Origin: an uncultured Bacilli bacterium
GTDB lineage: Bacteria; Bacillota_I; Bacilli_A; RF39; UBA660
Direction of reading: 5' to 3'
Assembly (NCBI GenBank): GCA_944350415.1
Contig: CALVOY010000014.1
Span: 262 to 64,261, forward strand
DNA length: 64,000 nucleotides
Shown here piece by piece: positions 1,605 through 58,992 of the stretch. Position numbers and translations under genes: made by a program. Below the pieces are notes generated by a model that had not been told where the DNA came from, ran no database searches, and saw only the letters and a list, made by a program, of their open reading frames with translations. Positions within the stretch are counted from its first letter, which is position 1. Each line of letters opens with the position of its first letter.

Positions 1605-1681
1605 TGGTGTTCTCGGGCAGATTTGAACTGCCGACTTTCCCTTTAGGAGAGGGATACTCTATCCAACTGAGTTACGAGAAC
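1605..1681 (-). tRNA. tRNA-Arg (anticodon CCT)
   Basis: Reverse complement folds as cloverleaf: acceptor GTTCTCG/CGAGAAC, anticodon arm TCCCT-CTCCTAA-AGGGA, T-loop TTCAAAT, encoded CCA. Confidence 0.85.
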
Positions 1682-19384: not shown

Positions 19385-19501
19385 TAAAAAAAGAGATACA
19401 TTAAATGCATCTCGATTTTAAAATAATTTCATTGTACACATTATAAAGTTAATTTTATCGAATGTAAATAGCACGAATAATCGGCAAATTATCGATTTTA
19501 A

Positions 19502-20086
19502 TTAATACCCTAACAATTCACCTATTAAATCATTAGGCAATAATAAAGGCCTTATTGACTCTATTAACCTATTTTTATTTAGTGCAATTGTCGATGTTGA
19601 AGTTGTTTCTTTTTTATGATTCTTCTTATCAAGATATTCAGCTATTTGTTCATGTGTTTTACCTTCAAAATATTTTAAATGAATAATATCAAAATATGGA
19701 TCATTTTTTAAACTGTTAATAACTGACTCTATATGTCTAATAATTACCTTTGTTTTAAAGATATGTTTTTTTAGACTATCAATTGAATCTTCAATAATAT
19801 CATCTTTATCTTTTCTAATTGTATCGTGAGATAGTCCTGTTATAGATTTTGATTTTTCCTGAGTACCATATTCTCTTAATTCTTTAATTTCTTTCTCTCT
19901 TTCATTTATAGATGCTTTTAATTTTGGATATTCATATAAAATTCGCTCCACATTTTTAAAAGTAGAATAATTATTTTTTATAAAACCGCGTGCCTCTAAT
20001 TCATCTAATACAATATTTGATATTTCTTTTTTTGAAACATCCATTTCTTTTGCAATTTTATTTAAAATAATTTCTTCATTTATCAT
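19502..20086 (-). CDS. putative late-gene transcriptional activator (sigma-70 region-4/ArpU-like HTH)
   Basis: C-terminal HLKYFEGKTHEQIAEYLD resembles sigma region 4; located before packaging genes. Confidence 0.45.
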   Translation of the reverse strand: MINEEIILNKIAKEMDVSKKEISNIVLDELEARGFIKNNYSTFKNVERILYEYPKLKASINEREKEIKELREYGTQEKSKSITGLSHDTIRKDKDDIIEDSIDSLKKHIFKTKVIIRHIESVINSLKNDPYFDIIHLKYFEGKTHEQIAEYLDKKNHKKETTSTSTIALNKNRLIESIRPLLLPNDLIGELLGY

Positions 20087-20523: not shown

Positions 20524-20715
20524 TCATTTTTTCACCTCGGGAAGTCTAGTCCATAATATTTTTTGACAACCACAATTAGGGCAATCTATAGCATTATACA
20601 CATTAGAACCTGTTGTTAAACTTGATAATCCTTTATTTTCCGATACTTCTTTAACTTGATTTTTATCAATATAAAATCTATTATTACAAATATTACATTT
20701 AATTTTTTTAATCAT
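20524..20715 (-). CDS. zinc-ribbon protein (C4)
   Basis: KCNICNN...CPNCGC; AAGGAG RBS before internal ATG; the longer ORF-track N-terminus overlaps the repeat. Confidence 0.45.
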   Translation of the reverse strand: MIKKIKCNICNNRFYIDKNQVKEVSENKGLSSLTTGSNVYNAIDCPNCGCQKILWTRLPEVKK

Positions 20716-20721
20716 TTTTTT

Positions 20722-20856
20722 CTCCTTTTTCTCTCTAATATTCTGTGCAAGATAACTGTGAATTATATTGCACACTTCCAATCTCACTTTTAGCTATATA
20801 AAATAAGGCTAAAACTCATATTTTTTTATCTAAATAGTTTTTGTGATTTTCGATAC
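20722..20856. repeat. ~135-bp direct repeat, copy 1 (carries TGTGCAA-N17-TTGCACA palindrome and TATAAT)
   Basis: ~85% identical to 22114-22247; begins at the RBS of the zinc-ribbon gene. Confidence 0.75.
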
Positions 20857-20892
20857 CCTCTTTAGTGTTATAATTTTTCAAAAGGAGGATTA

Positions 20893-21057
20893 TAATGAAT
20901 ACCAAAGATATCGAAAAATTAGATGAATTAGCTATAAGTCTAGCTAATGAAATTATGGGATTGCTATCACACAAAAATATCAATGCTTCGACATATGATT
21001 ACTATAAAAAGCAAATTTATGAAATCATATTAGCTAGATTAACAAAATCTCTCTAAT
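20893..21057 (+). CDS. small hypothetical protein (54 aa), only plus-strand gene in the late region
   Basis: aaaggagg RBS 7 nt before ATG; MNTKDIEKLDELAISLANEIMG... Confidence 0.45.
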
Positions 21058-21219
21058 TTTTTATATGTTCTTCTAGAATTGGCGTTTCTAGAAGAATTTT
21101 TTTTATAGCTGTTATAATATCATCTTTAAAATCTATAATATTTTCTTGTTCTCTAATTTGGTATATTACAAATAGTAATTTTCCTAAATTTTGATATAAT
21201 AACCCAAATTCTTCTTTAT

Positions 21220-22095
21220 TCAAAATTTAATCATCTCCATTTTTTTCTTTTTTTCTTGCAAAGTAGTTCTTGTATAAATACTTGTCGTTTCCATTTTAGA
21301 ATGTCCTAAAATATCCATTAATTCTGTCATTGTAGAACCTGGTAATTGTAAATATGCTATTGCAAATAAATGCCTCCAGCCATGTGGATGAATGTGATCT
21401 AAATTTACTCTTGCTACTCCTCCGATTTTTTTCAAATGTCTCCAAATGGTTGATGGATTAATCATTCTGTTTGAATCTTGTTTTAAAATTGGATCTGGAC
21501 TTCTAAAAATAAATCCTTCTGTTATATTGTTATCTTTACAATATTTTTTTAATGATCTATGTAAATCTCCTATCAAGATAATTTGCCTTTCTTTACCTTT
21601 GCTGTAAATATCAATATATGGACCTTTTTGAATATTTTCAAATGTAAAATATTTTAATTCACTAATTCTAATTGCTGTTTGTGCAAATGTTTTAATAATC
21701 ATATACATTTCATACTCTTCGAGTTCTTTAGCTTTACGAAGCATTCTTTTATGTTCTTGATTAGACATTTGATTTTCTAACGATGATTTTTTTTGACTTC
21801 TAAAATGTTTTATTATTAAATCTTTATATCCTAGATATTTTAAAAATTTATTAAATATAACGACATATTTATTGATTGATGATACTTTAGCTTGTCCTGT
21901 CTTTAATTGTTGCTCTAAATATAACTTATATTTAATAGTAGAATCTTTTGAAAATGTAATATTATCCTCATTAATATAGTCATAGAATTTATTCAAGCAA
22001 TTTCTGTAATCAACTACTGTTTTAGTGGTCTTTTCATCAAGCCTCTCATTTTCACAAAATTCTTCTATTTTTTGTTTTAGTTCATCTTTAGTCAT
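21220..22095 (-). CDS. tyrosine site-specific recombinase (XerC/D-like, second integrase inside prophage)
   Basis: HPHGWRHLFA...LGHSKMETTSIYTRT catalytic R..HxxR..Y signature. Confidence 0.85.
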   Translation of the reverse strand: MTKDELKQKIEEFCENERLDEKTTKTVVDYRNCLNKFYDYINEDNITFSKDSTIKYKLYLEQQLKTGQAKVSSINKYVVIFNKFLKYLGYKDLIIKHFRSQKKSSLENQMSNQEHKRMLRKAKELEEYEMYMIIKTFAQTAIRISELKYFTFENIQKGPYIDIYSKGKERQIILIGDLHRSLKKYCKDNNITEGFIFRSPDPILKQDSNRMINPSTIWRHLKKIGGVARVNLDHIHPHGWRHLFAIAYLQLPGSTMTELMDILGHSKMETTSIYTRTTLQEKKKKMEMIKF

Positions 22096-22113
22096 AAAAT
22101 CACTCCATTCATC

Positions 22114-22247
22114 CCTCTTTTCTTCTTAATATTAGGTGCAAGATAACTGCATATTATATTGCACACTTTAAATCTTAATTTTGGCTTTATAAAATAAGGT
22201 TAAAAAACAATATTTTTTGTCAAAATAGTTTTTATCATTTTTGATAC
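22114..22247. repeat. ~135-bp direct repeat, copy 2, immediately upstream of the recombinase
   Basis: Aligned by eye to 20722-20856. Confidence 0.75.
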
Positions 22248-22321: not shown

Positions 22322-22651
22322 TTAATACATATCTCTTATTCTAAATAAAACTTTGTATTCAGCTTTTGAAATAAAGTTATTGATATCACAACTTAATTTC
22401 TCAATATTTTCTACTCGCCATTCTTGACCATGATCATAACTTTGATTACACATTATCTCAGCTATCTGTGATATTATTTCTTTAGCTTCACCTTCCGAAA
22501 TAATATCATATAATTCAAAATTGTAGCCAAAAGATTCTTCTAATCTTTCATAATATACAGTTATATCTTTACCTTCATCTTTTTCGATAATTAATCTTAA
22601 TTTTGTTGGAATAATCTCCCTTTCTGGTATATAAAATTCTATTCTTTTCAT
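22322..22651 (-). CDS. hypothetical early phage protein
   Basis: ORF track. Confidence 0.4.
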   Translation of the reverse strand: MKRIEFYIPEREIIPTKLRLIIEKDEGKDITVYYERLEESFGYNFELYDIISEGEAKEIISQIAEIMCNQSYDHGQEWRVENIEKLSCDINNFISKAEYKVLFRIRDMY

Positions 22652-31075: not shown

Positions 31076-32107
31076 ATGGCAAAATATAAATCTAGAAAAT
31101 TACCTAATAGATACGGAACTATTAGCAAACTATCAGGTAATAGAAGAAAGCCTTATATTATTAAAGGATTTGAAGGCTATGATGATGACGGGAAAATAAT
31201 CAGGCCTATTATTGGATATGCTATAGACTATACAGAAGCTTTGGGTATATTATCTAATTATAATAAAGAACCTTATGATTTAGATTATGCAAATTTATCA
31301 ACTAAAGATTTATTTAATTTATGGTATGCTGATCTTTATAATAAAGTTAAAAGCAAAAAGCTAGGAGAAAAAAGGTATAAGGGATATAAAAGTACATTTG
31401 ATAAGTATTTTAAAACTATTCATAATCAAAAATATATATTATTAAAGACTAATGATATGCAAAAATGCTTTGATGAATGTATACATGGTTTTTCAACTAA
31501 AACTAATATGAAAATAATATTTAATGGACTTTTTGAAAAATCACAAGACCTTGAAATGCCAATCAAAAAAAATTTTGTTGAAAACTGCTATATTGGAGAA
31601 AAAGAAGATTCAGAAAAACATATTCCATTTTCTACACAAGAAATAAAAAAATTATGGAATAATATTGATAATACAGAAAATATAGATTTAATATTAATTA
31701 ATATTTATACAGGATGTAGACCAAATGAATTATTAGAACCTAATGAAATTCATTTTGAAGAAAGATATTTTATTGGTGGAAGTAAAACTGAAGCAGGTAG
31801 AAATAGAATAATTCCAATTCATGAAAAAATTGCTAATTTATTTAAAAAAAGATTTATTGATAGCGAGATTAATATCAACTATCGAAAATACTACAAATCC
31901 TTTCTTGCTGCAATGAATAAATTAGAAATGAATCACACGCCGTATGATTGCCGCCATACATTTGCAACAGAAGCCGATAATAGTAAACTAAATGACTTAT
32001 GTATCAAACTAATCATGGGGCATTCAGTACAAGATATTACAAAAGGAGTATATACTCATAAAACTCCACAACAATTAGTAGAAGAAGTGAATAAAATTGA
32101 CTTTTAA
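31076..32107 (+). CDS. int: phage tyrosine integrase
   Basis: TGCRPNEL...HTPYDCRHTFATEA...LIMGHSVQDITKGVYTH catalytic signature; adjacent to att repeats and tRNA. Confidence 0.9.
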   Translation: MAKYKSRKLPNRYGTISKLSGNRRKPYIIKGFEGYDDDGKIIRPIIGYAIDYTEALGILSNYNKEPYDLDYANLSTKDLFNLWYADLYNKVKSKKLGEKRYKGYKSTFDKYFKTIHNQKYILLKTNDMQKCFDECIHGFSTKTNMKIIFNGLFEKSQDLEMPIKKNFVENCYIGEKEDSEKHIPFSTQEIKKLWNNIDNTENIDLILINIYTGCRPNELLEPNEIHFEERYFIGGSKTEAGRNRIIPIHEKIANLFKKRFIDSEININYRKYYKSFLAAMNKLEMNHTPYDCRHTFATEADNSKLNDLCIKLIMGHSVQDITKGVYTHKTPQQLVEEVNKIDF

Positions 32108-32247: not shown

Positions 32248-32324
<77 letters not shown>

Positions 32325-57721: not shown

Positions 57722-57797
57722 TGGTGGAGCATAACGGGATCGAACCGTTGACCTCCACGGTGCAAACGTGGCGCTCTCCCAGCTGAGCTAATGCCCC
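57722..57797 (-). tRNA. tRNA-Ala (TGC)
   Basis: GGGGCAT acceptor, anticodon loop TTTGCAC. Confidence 0.85.
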
Positions 57798-57945
57798 ATA
57801 TCATTACTTAATACAGTTCGATAGGCTTATAAACTGCATCAGTAAGTTAATCATATCATTAGTGGACTTTAAAAGTCAATATCTAAATGTTATGATTATA
57901 ATTTTATTATAAAACTCTTATGGTAATAAGAGTTTATAAACTAAA

Positions 57946-58022
57946 TGGTCGGGAAGACAGGATTTGAACCTGCAACCCCTTGGTCCCAAACCAAGTGCTC
58001 TACCAAGTTGAGCCACTTCCCG
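57946..58022 (-). tRNA. tRNA-Pro (TGG)
   Basis: CGGGAAG acceptor, loop TTTGGGA. Confidence 0.85.
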
Positions 58023-58024
58023 AA

Positions 58025-58101
58025 TGGTGCGCTCGAAGGGATTCGAACCCCTGACCTTTTGGTTCGTAGCCAAACACTCTATCCAGCTGAGCTACGAGCG
58101 C
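58025..58101 (-). tRNA. tRNA-Arg (ACG)
   Basis: GCGCTCG acceptor, loop CTACGAA. Confidence 0.85.
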
Positions 58102-58135
58102 ATGACCAGTTACCGGTCAGTTCTAAAAATAAATA

Positions 58136-58211
<76 letters not shown>

Positions 58212-58214
58212 ATA

Positions 58215-58291
58215 TGGCGGTCTCAACGGGACTCGAACCCGCGATCTTCTGCGTGACAGGCAGACGTGTTAACCAGCTGCACCATGAGACC
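58215..58291 (-). tRNA. tRNA-Asp (GTC)
   Basis: GGTCTCA acceptor, loop CTGTCAC. Confidence 0.85.
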
Positions 58292-58296
58292 AATTA

Positions 58297-58373
58297 TGGT
58301 TGCGGGAACAGGATTTGAACCTGTGACCTCTGGGTTATGAGCCCAACGAGCTACCAGACTGCTCTATCCCGCG
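58297..58373 (-). tRNA. initiator tRNA-fMet (CAT)
   Basis: CGCGGG 5' end with C1:A72 mismatch, GGG/CCC anticodon stem, loop CTCATAA. Confidence 0.8.
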
Positions 58374-58379
58374 ATATTG

Positions 58380-58472
58380 TGGCGGAGGAAAAGGGATTCG
58401 AACCCCTGCGCCGCTTGCACGACCTCCCGGTTTTCAAGACCGGTCCCTTCAACCAGACTTGGGTATTCCTCC
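58380..58472 (-). tRNA. tRNA-Ser (TGA)
   Basis: GGAGGAA acceptor, long variable arm, loop CTTGAAA. Confidence 0.8.
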
Positions 58473-58474
58473 GT

Positions 58475-58563
58475 TGGTGCCTAAGGTCGGACTTGAACCG
58501 ACACGAGTGTTGAAGCTCGCAGGATTTTAAGTCCTGTGCGTCTACCTATTCCGCCACTCAGGC
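58475..58563 (-). tRNA. tRNA-Leu (TAA)
   Basis: GCCTGAG acceptor, long variable arm, loop CTTAAAA. Confidence 0.8.
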
Positions 58564-58571
58564 ACAAATTA

Positions 58572-58647
58572 TGGTGTCCCGTTGGAGATTCGAACTCCAG
58601 ACCCTCTGATTAAAAGTCAGATGCTCTACCGACTGAGCTAACGGAAC
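58572..58647 (-). tRNA. tRNA-Lys (TTT)
   Basis: Loop CTTTTAA. Confidence 0.85.
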
Positions 58648-58657
58648 AAATCATAAA

Positions 58658-58732
58658 TGGCTGCCTCGGCTAGATTCGAACTAGCGCATGTCAGAGTCAA
58701 AGTCTGATGCCTTACCACTTGGCTACGAGGCA
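58658..58732 (-). tRNA. tRNA-Gln (TTG)
   Basis: TGCCTCG acceptor, loop CTTTGAC. Confidence 0.85.
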
Positions 58733-58737
58733 ATCTA

Positions 58738-58822
58738 GTGGTGGAGAGAGATGGATTCGAACCATCGAACCGTTAGGAACAGATTTACAGTCTGCCGCGT
58801 TTAGCCACTTCGCTACCTCTCA
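58738..58822 (-). tRNA. tRNA-Tyr (GTA)
   Basis: Loop CTGTAAA, long variable arm, TAGCGAAGTGGCTAAACGC D-arm typical of Tyr; 5' end boundary uncertain by 1 nt. Confidence 0.75.
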
Positions 58823-58833
58823 AAAAAACAAAT

Positions 58834-58908
58834 GGTGCCGAAAACAGGAATCGAACCCGTAACCTATTGATTACAAATCAATTGCTCTACCAATTGAGCT
58901 ATTTCGGC
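58834..58908 (-). tRNA. tRNA-Thr (TGT)
   Basis: GCCGAAA acceptor, loop TTTGTAA. Confidence 0.85.
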
Positions 58909-58915
58909 ACATAAA

Positions 58916-58992
58916 TGGTGGGCGATATAGGACTCGAACCTATGACCCCCTGCTTGTAAGGCAGGTGCTCTAACCAACTGAGCTAATCGCCC
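58916..58992 (-). tRNA. tRNA-Val (TAC)
   Basis: GGGCGAT acceptor, loop CTTACAA. Confidence 0.85.

What the first reader, a model, noticed from the sequence alone, without database searches (positions are those of the whole stretch)
20722..22247. Intra-prophage tyrosine recombinase cassette bracketed by ~135-bp direct repeats carrying a conserved palindrome over a TATAAT
Between the early region and the late regulator/packaging genes sits a second tyrosine recombinase (21220-22095) plus a small plus-strand gene. They are flanked by two ~135-bp direct repeats (20722-20856 and 22114-22247, ~85% identical). Each repeat starts exactly at the RBS of its downstream gene (the zinc-ribbon gene and the recombinase). 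Each carries TGTGCAA-N17-TTGCACA arms that enclose a perfect TATAAT on the coding strand. So the same operator/promoter leader is duplicated in front of two different genes, and the duplication also creates substrates for deletion of the 1.4-kb cassette. Possibilities: a co-regulated late or SOS-type promoter recognised by the adjacent ArpU/sigma-like regulator; a self-excising recombinase module comparable to the intervening elements of spore-formers; or the attL/attR scar of a mini integrative element inserted into the phage. An alternative reading is that 1.8-22.1 kb and 22.2-32.3 kb are tandem elements each with its own integrase (PICI-like plus helper). I find this less likely, because only the combination gives a complete phage gene set.
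Basis: seen in the sequence. Interest (0 to 1): 0.65.

Follow-up and report, generated by a model that had tools for sequence, protein, structure and literature searches.

The report
Phage Xer-like recombinase with paired sites
The repeats are real: they are two copies of a 29-bp palindromic site with a ~90-bp flanking arm that always travels with a small Xer-type recombinase, a module that many gut-bacterial phages carry between their early and late genes and whose role is still unknown.

Summary
Repeats at 20727-20856 (D) and 22118-22247 (U) are 80-81% identical and bracket a 291-aa tyrosine recombinase.

This is not a one-off insertion. The same layout (early genes, U, recombinase plus variable cargo, D, late regulator, terminase) recurs in many uncultured gut phage contigs. 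A derived clade keeps only one site, directly upstream of the recombinase.

The conserved unit is GTGCAATATAA-N7/8-TTATCTTGCA, plus an arm of A-tracts at fixed positions. A DNA-only scan for this core returned phage elements that, with one exception, all had a recombinase homologue within 2 kb. The recombinase is the only protein family shared by 21 of 21 representative loci. Its six catalytic residues are invariant in 118 homologues, and its closest solved relatives are XerA and XerD.

U and D have identical arms, but their central spacers differ in all 22 two-site phages, always in the left part. The flanks, by contrast, evolve in concert within each genome.

Best reading (about 0.5): these are the recombinase's own core sites, resembling dif or the Tn4430 resolution site, and U probably doubles as its promoter/operator. 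The two sites are heterospecific, so the cassette stays in place.

The sigma/ArpU-operator and tandem-element readings are not supported. No recombination product was seen.

The parts
22118..22247 (-). U element: upstream copy of the ~130-nt repeat. It holds an A-tract accessory arm, the core and a short leader, and ends just before the recombinase RBS.
22136..22164 (-). U core site: GTGCAATATAA-TATGCAG-TTATCTTGCAC (11-7-11). TATAAT spans the left-arm/spacer border.
21220..22095 (-). Xer-type tyrosine recombinase, 291 aa. Catalytic residues are R143, K168, H238, R241, H265 and Y274.
21053..21223 (-). 56-aa ORF overlapping the recombinase stop codon. This is lineage-specific cargo, and it is uncertain whether it is a real gene.
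20895..21056 (+). 53-aa convergent cargo gene. It has its own extended -10 (TGTTATAAT, 20866-20874) and an RBS.
21067..21097 (+). Terminator-like hairpin plus T-run that closes the plus-strand cargo gene.
20727..20856 (-). D element: downstream copy of the repeat, ending at the RBS of the Zn-ribbon gene.
20745..20773 (-). D core site: GTGCAATATAA-TTCACAG-TTATCTTGCAC. The arms are the same as in U; spacer positions 2-4 differ.
20524..20715 (-). Zn-ribbon-like small gene. It is the first gene of the operon downstream of D that leads to the late regulator.
19502..20086 (-). Sigma-70 region-4-like late regulator (context only). It is not conserved among phages that carry the element.

Best explanation
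U and D are two copies of the cognate site of the phage's own Xer-type tyrosine recombinase. Each site has a 29-30 bp core: two inverted 11-bp arms around a 7- or 8-bp central region, where strand exchange would occur. On one side of the core lies a ~85-100 bp accessory arm of A-tracts at fixed positions. This is the layout of dif, cer/psi and the Tn4430 internal resolution site.

The recombinase (inferred) binds the arms as a dimer. At U the left arm and first spacer base form the -10 box (TATAAT) of its own transcription unit, so binding probably also autoregulates the cassette.

The two sites share arms but have different central regions, differing in the left part and alike in the right part. 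Complete U x D exchange, which would delete the recombinase, is therefore disfavoured. Like sites on different genome copies or on related phages (U x U, D x D) remain compatible.

The likely outcome is site-specific recombination between phage genome copies at the early/late junction. That would mean forming or resolving multimers before cos packaging, and exchanging the variable cargo cassette or adjacent modules between related phages.

Shown here: the anatomy, the site-recombinase linkage, catalytic conservation, the spacer pattern and the mosaic breakpoints.

Inferred: binding, strand exchange at these sites, autoregulation and the biological role.
For: 1. Linkage found without using the protein. 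The core pattern was scanned in 2.9 M viral contigs and 241 M metagenome records. Every phage-type element with enough flank had a recombinase homologue (41-95% identity) no more than ~2 kb from a site. The only exceptions are two overlapping contigs of one arrangement, L062/L064.

2. The recombinase is the only protein family present in 21 of 21 representative loci. HNH is in 16 and TerL in 13; the late regulator is not shared.

3. R-K-H-R-H-Y is invariant in 118 homologues, so catalysis is under selection. The protein aligns over its full length to XerA (4a8e, 5hxy) and XerD (1a0p) and has no extra arm-binding domain.

4. The arms are invariant while TerL falls to 24% identity and the recombinase to 41-50%. 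The inner ATAA/TTAT and the 11-N-11 geometry resemble published dif sites.

5. U versus D: the left arm is identical in 22/22 and the right arm in 20/22 phages, while the spacer differs in 22/22. The difference is always at position 1 in the 8-nt clade and at positions 2-3 in the window clade. Meanwhile the accessory arms evolve in concert: within-phage U-D identity is 80-85%, against 67-75% between phages.

6. The spacer type is conserved across phages (U = TATGCAG in 8 of 9 window-clade phages).

7. Mosaic breakpoints fall at the elements. Homology between the window's D and that of L002 and L010 stops at the core's right end. L012 and L023 have 97-99% identical flanks but an 81% identical cassette, and the left break is about 20 nt after the U core.

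8. The two-site state occupies the basal lineages of the recombinase tree.

9. There are no other arm copies in the window.
Against: - No recombination product was seen: no U/D hybrid junction, no empty site and no cassette circle. The short contigs L059 and L060 end in sequence shared by U and D, so they are assembly breaks, not circles.
- The element also looks like an expression cassette. TATAAT is perfect in every U. A semi-conserved leader (AATAWTAGAG...GAGG) follows the core. In most elements examined, an ORF starts about 26-33 nt after the core, whatever the gene. A promoter/operator reading explains this more directly.
- The accessory arm contains no extra copies of the arm motif, unlike the Tn4430 site.
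- Mosaic breakpoints at a conserved island could come from homologous recombination. In L012/L023 the right breakpoint is 330 nt before D, not at D.
- The benefit to the phage is not established.
Confidence: 0.5

Rival explanations
1. Purely transcriptional element. U and D are duplicated promoter-operator-leader cassettes that start two transcription units: the recombinase/cargo unit and the late-regulator operon. The palindrome is an operator over the -10. It may be bound by the recombinase acting only as a repressor, and strand exchange happens elsewhere or rarely.
For: - TATAAT is invariant in all U copies.
- A leader and RBS follow the core, and the next start codon lies at a nearly fixed distance for unrelated downstream genes.
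- There are A-rich tracts upstream.
- In the single-site clade the site sits 53-72 nt before the recombinase ATG.
- In the window, D follows a convergent gene and terminator, so a fresh promoter would be needed there.
Against: - There is no conserved -35 and no TG extension. The generic scan does not call it a promoter.
- D copies in a whole clade read TATAAC, which lacks the key -7 T, yet keep perfect arms.
- The conserved A-tracts lie at about -68 to -95, beyond UP-element range.
- The catalytic residues of the only conserved partner protein are invariant, and no other candidate recombination site is conserved.
- There are no copies at the immunity region or ahead of the late genes.
Confidence: 0.25
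2. Active mini integrative element. The 1.4-kb (elsewhere 1.2-3.6 kb) cassette is a mobile element, with U and D as its attL and attR. It excises as a circle and re-inserts into the equivalent single site of other phages.
For: - Direct repeats flank a recombinase and variable cargo.
- Cassette phylogeny disagrees with the flanks: window versus L001 and L009, and L012 versus L023.
- One cargo gene is an Abi_2 abortive-infection gene.
- Xer-type enzymes can exchange one strand pair with one-sided spacer homology (own knowledge; the CTX phage precedent). Here the right spacer half of U and D matches.
Against: - attL and attR of one element should share the crossover sequence, but the spacers differ in 22/22.
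- No recombinase-free target site was found in relatives in two large collections.
- No circle was found.
- The two-site state is ancestral and stably inherited.
- Single-site phages keep the recombinase fixed in place.
Confidence: 0.12
3. Programmed excision switch. During lytic growth the recombinase deletes the cassette, with its convergent gene and terminator, and so fuses early transcription to the late-regulator operon, as intervening elements do in spore formers.
For: The cassette sits exactly between the early genes and the late regulator. In the window it contains a convergent transcription unit.
Against: - Progeny would lose the recombinase, yet every relative keeps it.
- No gene is split.
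- The spacers are heterologous.
- The single-site clade cannot excise anything.
Confidence: 0.05
4. Two tandem elements (satellite plus helper), each with its own integrase, or a chance or recent duplication with no function.
For: There are two tyrosine recombinases in one 30-kb prophage.
Against: - The same internal layout is found in many viral contigs and prophages, with early genes upstream and packaging genes downstream.
- The attachment sites are at the tRNA-Arg genes.
- The core is invariant over deep divergence.
Confidence: 0.01

Closest known systems
TnpI / internal resolution site (IRS) of Tn4430 and Tn5401 (Bacillus thuringiensis)
   Same: Both pair a small tyrosine recombinase with a ~116-130 bp site: a palindromic core plus accessory sequence on one side only, acting on direct repeats (PMC2847244). 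From my own knowledge, the Tn5401 site lies just upstream of the recombinase gene and overlaps its promoter, which gives autoregulation.
   Different: - The IRS accessory motifs DR1 and DR2 are extra copies of the recombinase-binding motif. Here the arm holds A-tracts and no arm copies.
- The IRS core is 14-4-14, against 11-7/8-11 here.
- The context is a transposon cointegrate, not a phage genome.
- Here there are two non-identical sites per genome.
Single-recombinase Xer modules (XerS/difSL, XerH/difH, archaeal XerA/dif)
   Same: - One Xer-type enzyme acts on a near-palindromic 11-N6-8-11 site that is genetically linked to its gene (PMC2731167).
- XerA and XerD are the closest solved structures.
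- The inner ATAA/TTAT matches.
   Different: - The phage module is not chromosomal and not at a replication terminus.
- The outer arm sequence is different.
- The spacer is 7-8 nt rather than 6.
- The sites have a long accessory arm, and many genomes carry two.
- FtsK dependence is unknown.
cer / psi plasmid multimer-resolution sites (XerCD plus accessory proteins)
   Same: Both have a core with a 6-8 bp central region and ~150-180 bp of accessory DNA on one side, which gives selectivity for direct repeats. One-sided strand exchange is possible.
   Different: Those systems use the host XerC and XerD together with PepA, ArgR or ArcA. Here the phage encodes a single recombinase, and any accessory factors are unknown.
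Cre/loxP of phage P1 and engineered heterospecific lox pairs (cassette exchange)
   Same: Both are phage-encoded tyrosine recombinases with a short palindromic site next to the gene. Sites with the same arms but different spacers do not recombine with each other, which is the principle of lox511 and lox2272 (own knowledge).
   Different: - loxP is 13-8-13 with no accessory arm.
- P1 is a plasmid prophage with one site.
- No close sequence similarity to Cre was seen.
- The heterospecific pair here is natural, and its function is unproven.
pdif modules of Acinetobacter plasmids
   Same: Both are gene cassettes bounded by Xer-type sites and are found in different backbones (PMC10132070).
   Different: Those sites use the host XerC/D, alternate in orientation and sit in plasmids. 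Here the sites are direct repeats and the recombinase lies inside the cassette.

Membership tests
Tyrosine recombinase superfamily (Pfam PF00589) | Catalytic R-K-H-R-H/W-Y residues and a profile match above the curated cutoff | tested here: met
   The Pfam score is 61.3 bits against a cutoff of 27.1. All six residues are invariant in 118 homologues.
Xer-type simple recombinases (XerC/D/A/S/H) | A two-domain protein of about 300 aa with no N-terminal arm-binding domain, and closest relatives that are Xer proteins | tested here: met
   The protein is 291 aa. Residues 9-287 align to XerA (4a8e at 7.6e-17, 5hxy) and XerD (1a0p). Some database sources name homologues XerD.
Xer-type simple recombinases (XerC/D/A/S/H) | The site is a single chromosomal dif near the replication terminus, with FtsK-coupled dimer resolution | tested here: not met
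   The sites lie inside phage genomes, often two per genome. FtsK dependence cannot be tested here.
dif-like core site | Two inverted ~11-bp arms with inner ATAA/TTAT around a 6-8 bp central region | tested here: met
   GTGCAATATAA-N7/8-TTATCTTGCA is present in all copies. It was compared with published dif tables.
Accessory-arm resolution sites (IRS, cer, psi, res) | Conserved accessory DNA of about 100 bp or more on one side of the core, with sites in direct repeat | tested here: met
   A-tracts and CTT hold fixed positions from -89 to -15 in 39 non-redundant elements. The repeats are direct.
Accessory-arm resolution sites (IRS type) | Accessory motifs are additional copies of the recombinase-binding motif | tested here: not met
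   There are no further arm-like motifs in the arm or elsewhere in the window beyond chance.
Integrative element attL/attR | An identical crossover (overlap) sequence in both flanking sites | tested here: not met
   The spacers differ in 22 of 22 two-site phages.
Integrative element attL/attR | Relatives with an unoccupied target site | tested here: not met
   Motif scans found no phage with a lone site and no recombinase. L062/L064 is a truncated or rearranged case joined to host genes.
Sigma-70-type promoter with operator | A -10 and a -35 hexamer at 16-18 bp spacing | tested here: inconclusive
   The -10 (TATAAT) is perfect in all U copies but reads TATAAC in the D copies of one clade. There is no conserved -35 (AAAA at that position) and no TG extension. 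The transcription start cannot be tested here.
Operator of the adjacent ArpU/sigma-like late regulator | Regulator and site co-occur, with sites ahead of late operons | tested here: not met
   A homologue of the regulator is found in only a few loci, whereas the site is invariant. There is no copy upstream of HNH or terS.
Structured RNA leader / known RNA family | An Rfam match or covarying helices | tested here: not met
   There is no relevant Rfam hit. RNAalifold predicts no pairs. The candidate hairpin is paired in only 54% of cells and is beaten by a slid control.
Phage satellite / tandem element | Own att sites and an independent gene set for each part | tested here: not met
   There is a single pair of tRNA-Arg att sites. 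The layout is conserved inside single phage genomes.

The most novel reading that the evidence does not exclude
This would be a natural recombinase-mediated cassette-exchange system. Two heterospecific sites (same arms, different central regions) bracket the recombinase and a hypervariable cargo slot that includes defence genes such as Abi_2. Related gut phages meeting in one cell could then swap the cassette, or the modules on either side, by U x U and D x D recombination, without the cassette ever deleting itself.
Probability: 0.2. Interest if true: 0.8.

Novelty: new variant of a known kind. Interest (0 to 1): 0.6.

Why it matters
If the sites are the recombinase's substrates, many temperate phages of gut Bacilli carry a second, dedicated site-specific recombination system at the boundary between their early and late genes. 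Its purpose is unexplained. It could prepare genome multimers for cos packaging in phages that lack homologous-recombination genes, or it could drive exchange of modules and cargo between phages.

It would also supply a compact (280-295 aa) Cre-like enzyme family with a 29-30 bp site and naturally occurring heterospecific spacer variants, which could be useful as genome-engineering tools.

I found no paper describing this module or its site sequence. The searches covered only the held open-access library.

Tried and rejected
- **Rfam:** a scan of the region and of the whole window gave only tRNAs and sub-threshold snoRNA noise.
- **RNA structure in the accessory arm:** RNAalifold found none. 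A hand-picked hairpin at -45 to -30 failed the pair count, with 54% of cells paired and a slid control scoring higher.
- **Excised circles:** the short recombinase contigs L059 (1721 nt) and L060 (1643 nt) have 29- and 21-nt terminal overlaps. These lie in accessory sequence shared by U and D, so they are assembly breaks.
- **Annotated phage collection:** there is no DNA relative. The best protein match, the second integrase of Erysipelothrix phage SE-1 (33% identity), sits elsewhere in its genome and has no comparable site.
- **Literature:** searches for the arm sequences returned only chance matches. Searches for second phage recombinases and phage Xer-like systems found nothing equivalent.
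- **The recombinase as chromosomal integrase with attP:** rejected, because in 270-640 kb contigs the site has phage early genes upstream.
- **cos site or replication origin:** rejected. There are two copies per genome, about 2 kb from terS and 5.5 kb from the replication initiator, and the element co-occurs with the recombinase rather than with those genes.
- **CI-type operator:** rejected, because there are no further half-sites in the window.
- **Second copies in single-site phages:** none found at low stringency.
Full report
**What is in the window.** All genes around the finding run on the minus strand. In the direction of transcription the order is:
- early genes, ending with a 109-aa ORF (22322-22651) and a 21-codon ORF;
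- repeat copy U (22247 down to 22118);
- a 291-aa ORF (22095-21220);
- a 56-aa ORF of doubtful status;
- a convergent plus-strand 53-aa gene (20895-21056) with its own TGTTATAAT promoter-like box and a terminator-like hairpin (21067-21097);
- repeat copy D (20856 down to 20727);
- a Zn-ribbon gene, two small ORFs, a sigma-70 region-4-like regulator (19502-20086), HNH, a small ORF at the position of the small terminase subunit, and the large terminase.

The prophage is bounded by two tRNA-Arg(CCT) genes (1605-1681 and 32248-32324). A canonical integrase lies at 31076-32107. GC content is 28% throughout.

The repeats are 130 nt long and 81% identical without gaps. The palindrome occurs only twice in 64 kb. 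Aligned on the coding strand, the conserved unit is GTGCAATATAA / 7 nt / TTATCTTGCAC. TATAAT is formed by the end of the left arm plus the first spacer base. The ORF is a tyrosine recombinase (Pfam 1.3e-16).

**It is a conserved module, not a local accident.** The recombinase has about 30 homologues at 72-95% identity and thousands at about 45-50%. In every context fetched, the gene lies at the end of the early region. It sits upstream of a small regulator (DUF1492 or Sigma70_r4-like), HNH and the terminase. All window-clade relatives have the two flanking repeats. So do more distant lineages: L011, L012, L022, L023, L036, L050 and L096 have 109-128-nt repeats 2.4-3.6 kb apart.

**Linkage of site and enzyme.** I scanned for the DNA core alone (GTGCAATATAA-N6-9-TATCTTGCA).
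- The scan returned 39 stretches from viral contigs and 44 from metagenome contigs.
- About ten are chance matches in unrelated, often GC-richer coding DNA, roughly the number expected for a 20-nt pattern.
- All others carry the A-tract arm. Wherever the flank is long enough, they have a recombinase homologue.
- The exception is L062 and its overlapping fragment L064. There the element is followed by an Abi_2 gene and then bacterial housekeeping genes (HtrA-like protease, RDD, YbaK-like). This is a truncated or rearranged prophage on a 3x-coverage contig.

In 21 representative loci the recombinase is the only protein family present in all of them. The late regulator next to D is not conserved among these phages, and large-terminase identity drops to 24%. 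The only plausible phage-encoded partner of the invariant palindrome is therefore the recombinase.

**The enzyme.** R143, K168, H238, R241, H265 and Y274 are invariant in 118 homologues. This argues against a protein reduced to DNA binding only. Its closest solved relatives are XerA and XerD, aligned end to end. There is no extra N-terminal arm-binding domain of the lambda-Int kind. In prophages on contigs of 270-640 kb, the site is preceded by phage early genes. The enzyme is therefore not the chromosomal integrase.

**The site.** The arms are invariant. The central region is 7 nt in the window clade and 8 nt elsewhere, and its sequence and length track the recombinase clades. The inner ATAA/TTAT and the 11-N-11 geometry match the general form of dif sites listed in PMC2731167, but the outer arms are different.

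Upstream of the core, 39 non-redundant elements share features at fixed distances:
- A5 at -78 to -74;
- AAAAA(G/C)TAT at -69 to -61;
- A6 at -53 to -48;
- CTT at -34 to -32;
- A4 at -18 to -15.

There is no -35-like hexamer, no Rfam family and no covarying RNA helix. Core plus one-sided arm is the layout of the 116-bp resolution site of Tn4430 (PMC2847244) and of cer/psi.

**U versus D.** In 22 distinct two-site phages the left arm is identical in all and the right arm in 20, while the spacer always differs.
- Window clade: U is TATGCAG (8 of 9 phages) and D is TTCACAG or a close variant. Positions 2-3 always differ.
- 8-nt clade: U starts with T and D with C in 7 of 7 phages, and the rest is largely shared.
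- The right part of the spacer changes in parallel in U and D. For example, L008 has TATA in both, where its relatives have GCAG and ACAG.

The accessory arms show concerted evolution. Within-phage U-D identity is 80% (window clade) and 85% (8-nt clade). Between phages, U-U, D-D and U-D identities are 73-75% and 67%, which are indistinguishable from each other. In L012-type phages the 20 nt after the core are also nearly identical between U and D.

The one to three left-hand spacer positions therefore keep a U or D identity while the sequence on both sides is homogenised. That points to selection for the difference. For tyrosine recombinases, identity of the central region between partner sites is normally required for complete exchange (established knowledge for lambda Int, Cre and FLP). 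The simplest reading is that U and D are kept heterospecific. That would explain why a recombinase flanked by direct repeats of its own site has not deleted itself.

One caveat comes from my own knowledge. Xer enzymes can carry out a single strand exchange with one-sided homology, as in CTX phage integration. U x D events are therefore not excluded.

**History and mosaicism.** On the recombinase tree the two-site state occupies the basal lineages. The single-site state, with the site 53-72 nt before the start codon in most members, forms one derived clade. No second copy was found in those phages, even at low stringency.

The interval between U and D ranges from 1.2 to 3.6 kb. It holds the recombinase plus one to eight small, mostly unknown ORFs that differ even between close relatives. 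One lineage carries a truncated Abi_2 gene that is intact in L062.

Similarity between phages breaks at the elements:
- The window's recombinase is closest to L001's (91% nt), but its late module is closest to L009's (85% over 4.7 kb).
- Homology of the window's D with L002 and L010 stops at the right end of the core.
- L012 and L023 share 97-99% identical flanks but an 81% identical cassette. The left break is about 20 nt after the U core, and the right break is 330 nt before D.

These patterns fit exchange at the sites. Homologous recombination within conserved islands would look much the same.

**The promoter question.** Several features fit a promoter-leader cassette. TATAAT is perfect in every U. 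A semi-conserved AATAWTAGAG...GAGG leader follows the core. In most elements an ORF starts about 26-33 nt after the core, whatever the gene.

Other features argue against a purely transcriptional role:
- There is no -35.
- D reads TATAAC across a whole clade.
- The conserved A-tracts lie too far upstream for an UP element.
- The partner enzyme keeps its catalytic residues.

I therefore think U is both the recombinase's site and the promoter/operator of its unit. From my own knowledge, resolvase/res and Tn5401 TnpI are arranged this way. Transcription start sites were not testable here.

**Function.** This part is inference. The phage has a DnaD-like replication initiator, and no recombination gene was detected among the ten larger early-region and lysogeny-module ORFs tested. 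Its HNH-terminase set is typical of cos packaging.

A site-specific recombinase expressed just before the late genes could interconvert monomer circles and multimers. Classical lambda genetics shows that cos packaging needs multimers, and that Int can supply them when general recombination is absent (own knowledge). Alternatively, or in addition, the pair of heterospecific sites would allow exchange of the cargo cassette or adjacent modules between related phages.

No product of any such reaction was observed. The two short recombinase contigs that might have been circles end in sequence shared by U and D, so they are assembly breaks.

**Verdict.**
- The ArpU/sigma operator idea and the tandem-element idea are not supported.
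- Active self-excision is weakened by the spacer heterology and by the long-term stability of the cassette.
- The module is a new variant of a known kind of system: a Xer-type or resolution-type recombinase with a core-plus-arm site.
- I found no description of it in the papers searched.

Noticed in passing
window 1605-1681 and 32248-32324; partial copy about 1735-1775: Two tRNA-Arg(CCT) genes, about 75% identical, flank the prophage. A ~30-nt fragment matching the right-hand tRNA lies just inside the left one. This looks like the att core of the canonical integrase at 31076-32107.
   Followed up: partly
L062 456-3923 (human gut contig OROD01006103, 6.5 kb, about 3x coverage); also L064: This is the only phage-type element without a recombinase nearby. 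The U site is followed by a 115-aa ORF and an intact Abi_2 gene, then directly by bacterial genes (HtrA-like protease, RDD, YbaK-like). It could be a truncated prophage, a junction made at the site, or a chimeric assembly. The same Abi_2 gene is truncated to 126 aa in the cassettes of L023 and L089.
   Followed up: partly
L076 6413-6439, L084 1862-1888, L093 2391-2417, L097 957-983, L104 2693-2719: Five environmental contigs (GC 35-52%) carry the same arms with a 6-nt spacer: GTGCAATATAA-N6-TTATCTTGCA. In L093 and L097 the site lies in the 3' end of a tilS-like gene, about 130-170 nt from a convergent ORF with a weak tyrosine-recombinase match (28% identity). This may be an unrelated integrase/att pair that uses the same arms.
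   Followed up: partly
window 19440-19468 (minus strand): A near-consensus sigma-70-type promoter (TTTACA-17-TATAAT, 11 of 12 positions) lies just upstream of the HNH/terminase genes. The late operon may therefore have its own promoter, unrelated to the repeated element.
   Followed up: no
L010 5001-6035: The recombinase ORF here is 344 aa because its N-terminal ~50 residues are duplicated in tandem (MNKEELQQKIEQFC... then ...LTKEELRHK...). This may be a scar of recombination next to the U site.
   Followed up: no
L012 7845-7894: Four tandem 10-nt units (TGGCCNCTTT) lie in the intergenic region downstream of the Sigma70_r4-like gene and ahead of the packaging genes. This could be a regulator-binding or cos-associated array in that phage.
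   Followed up: no
window 57725-58992: The host part of the window holds a cluster of about 14 tRNA genes on the minus strand.
   Followed up: no
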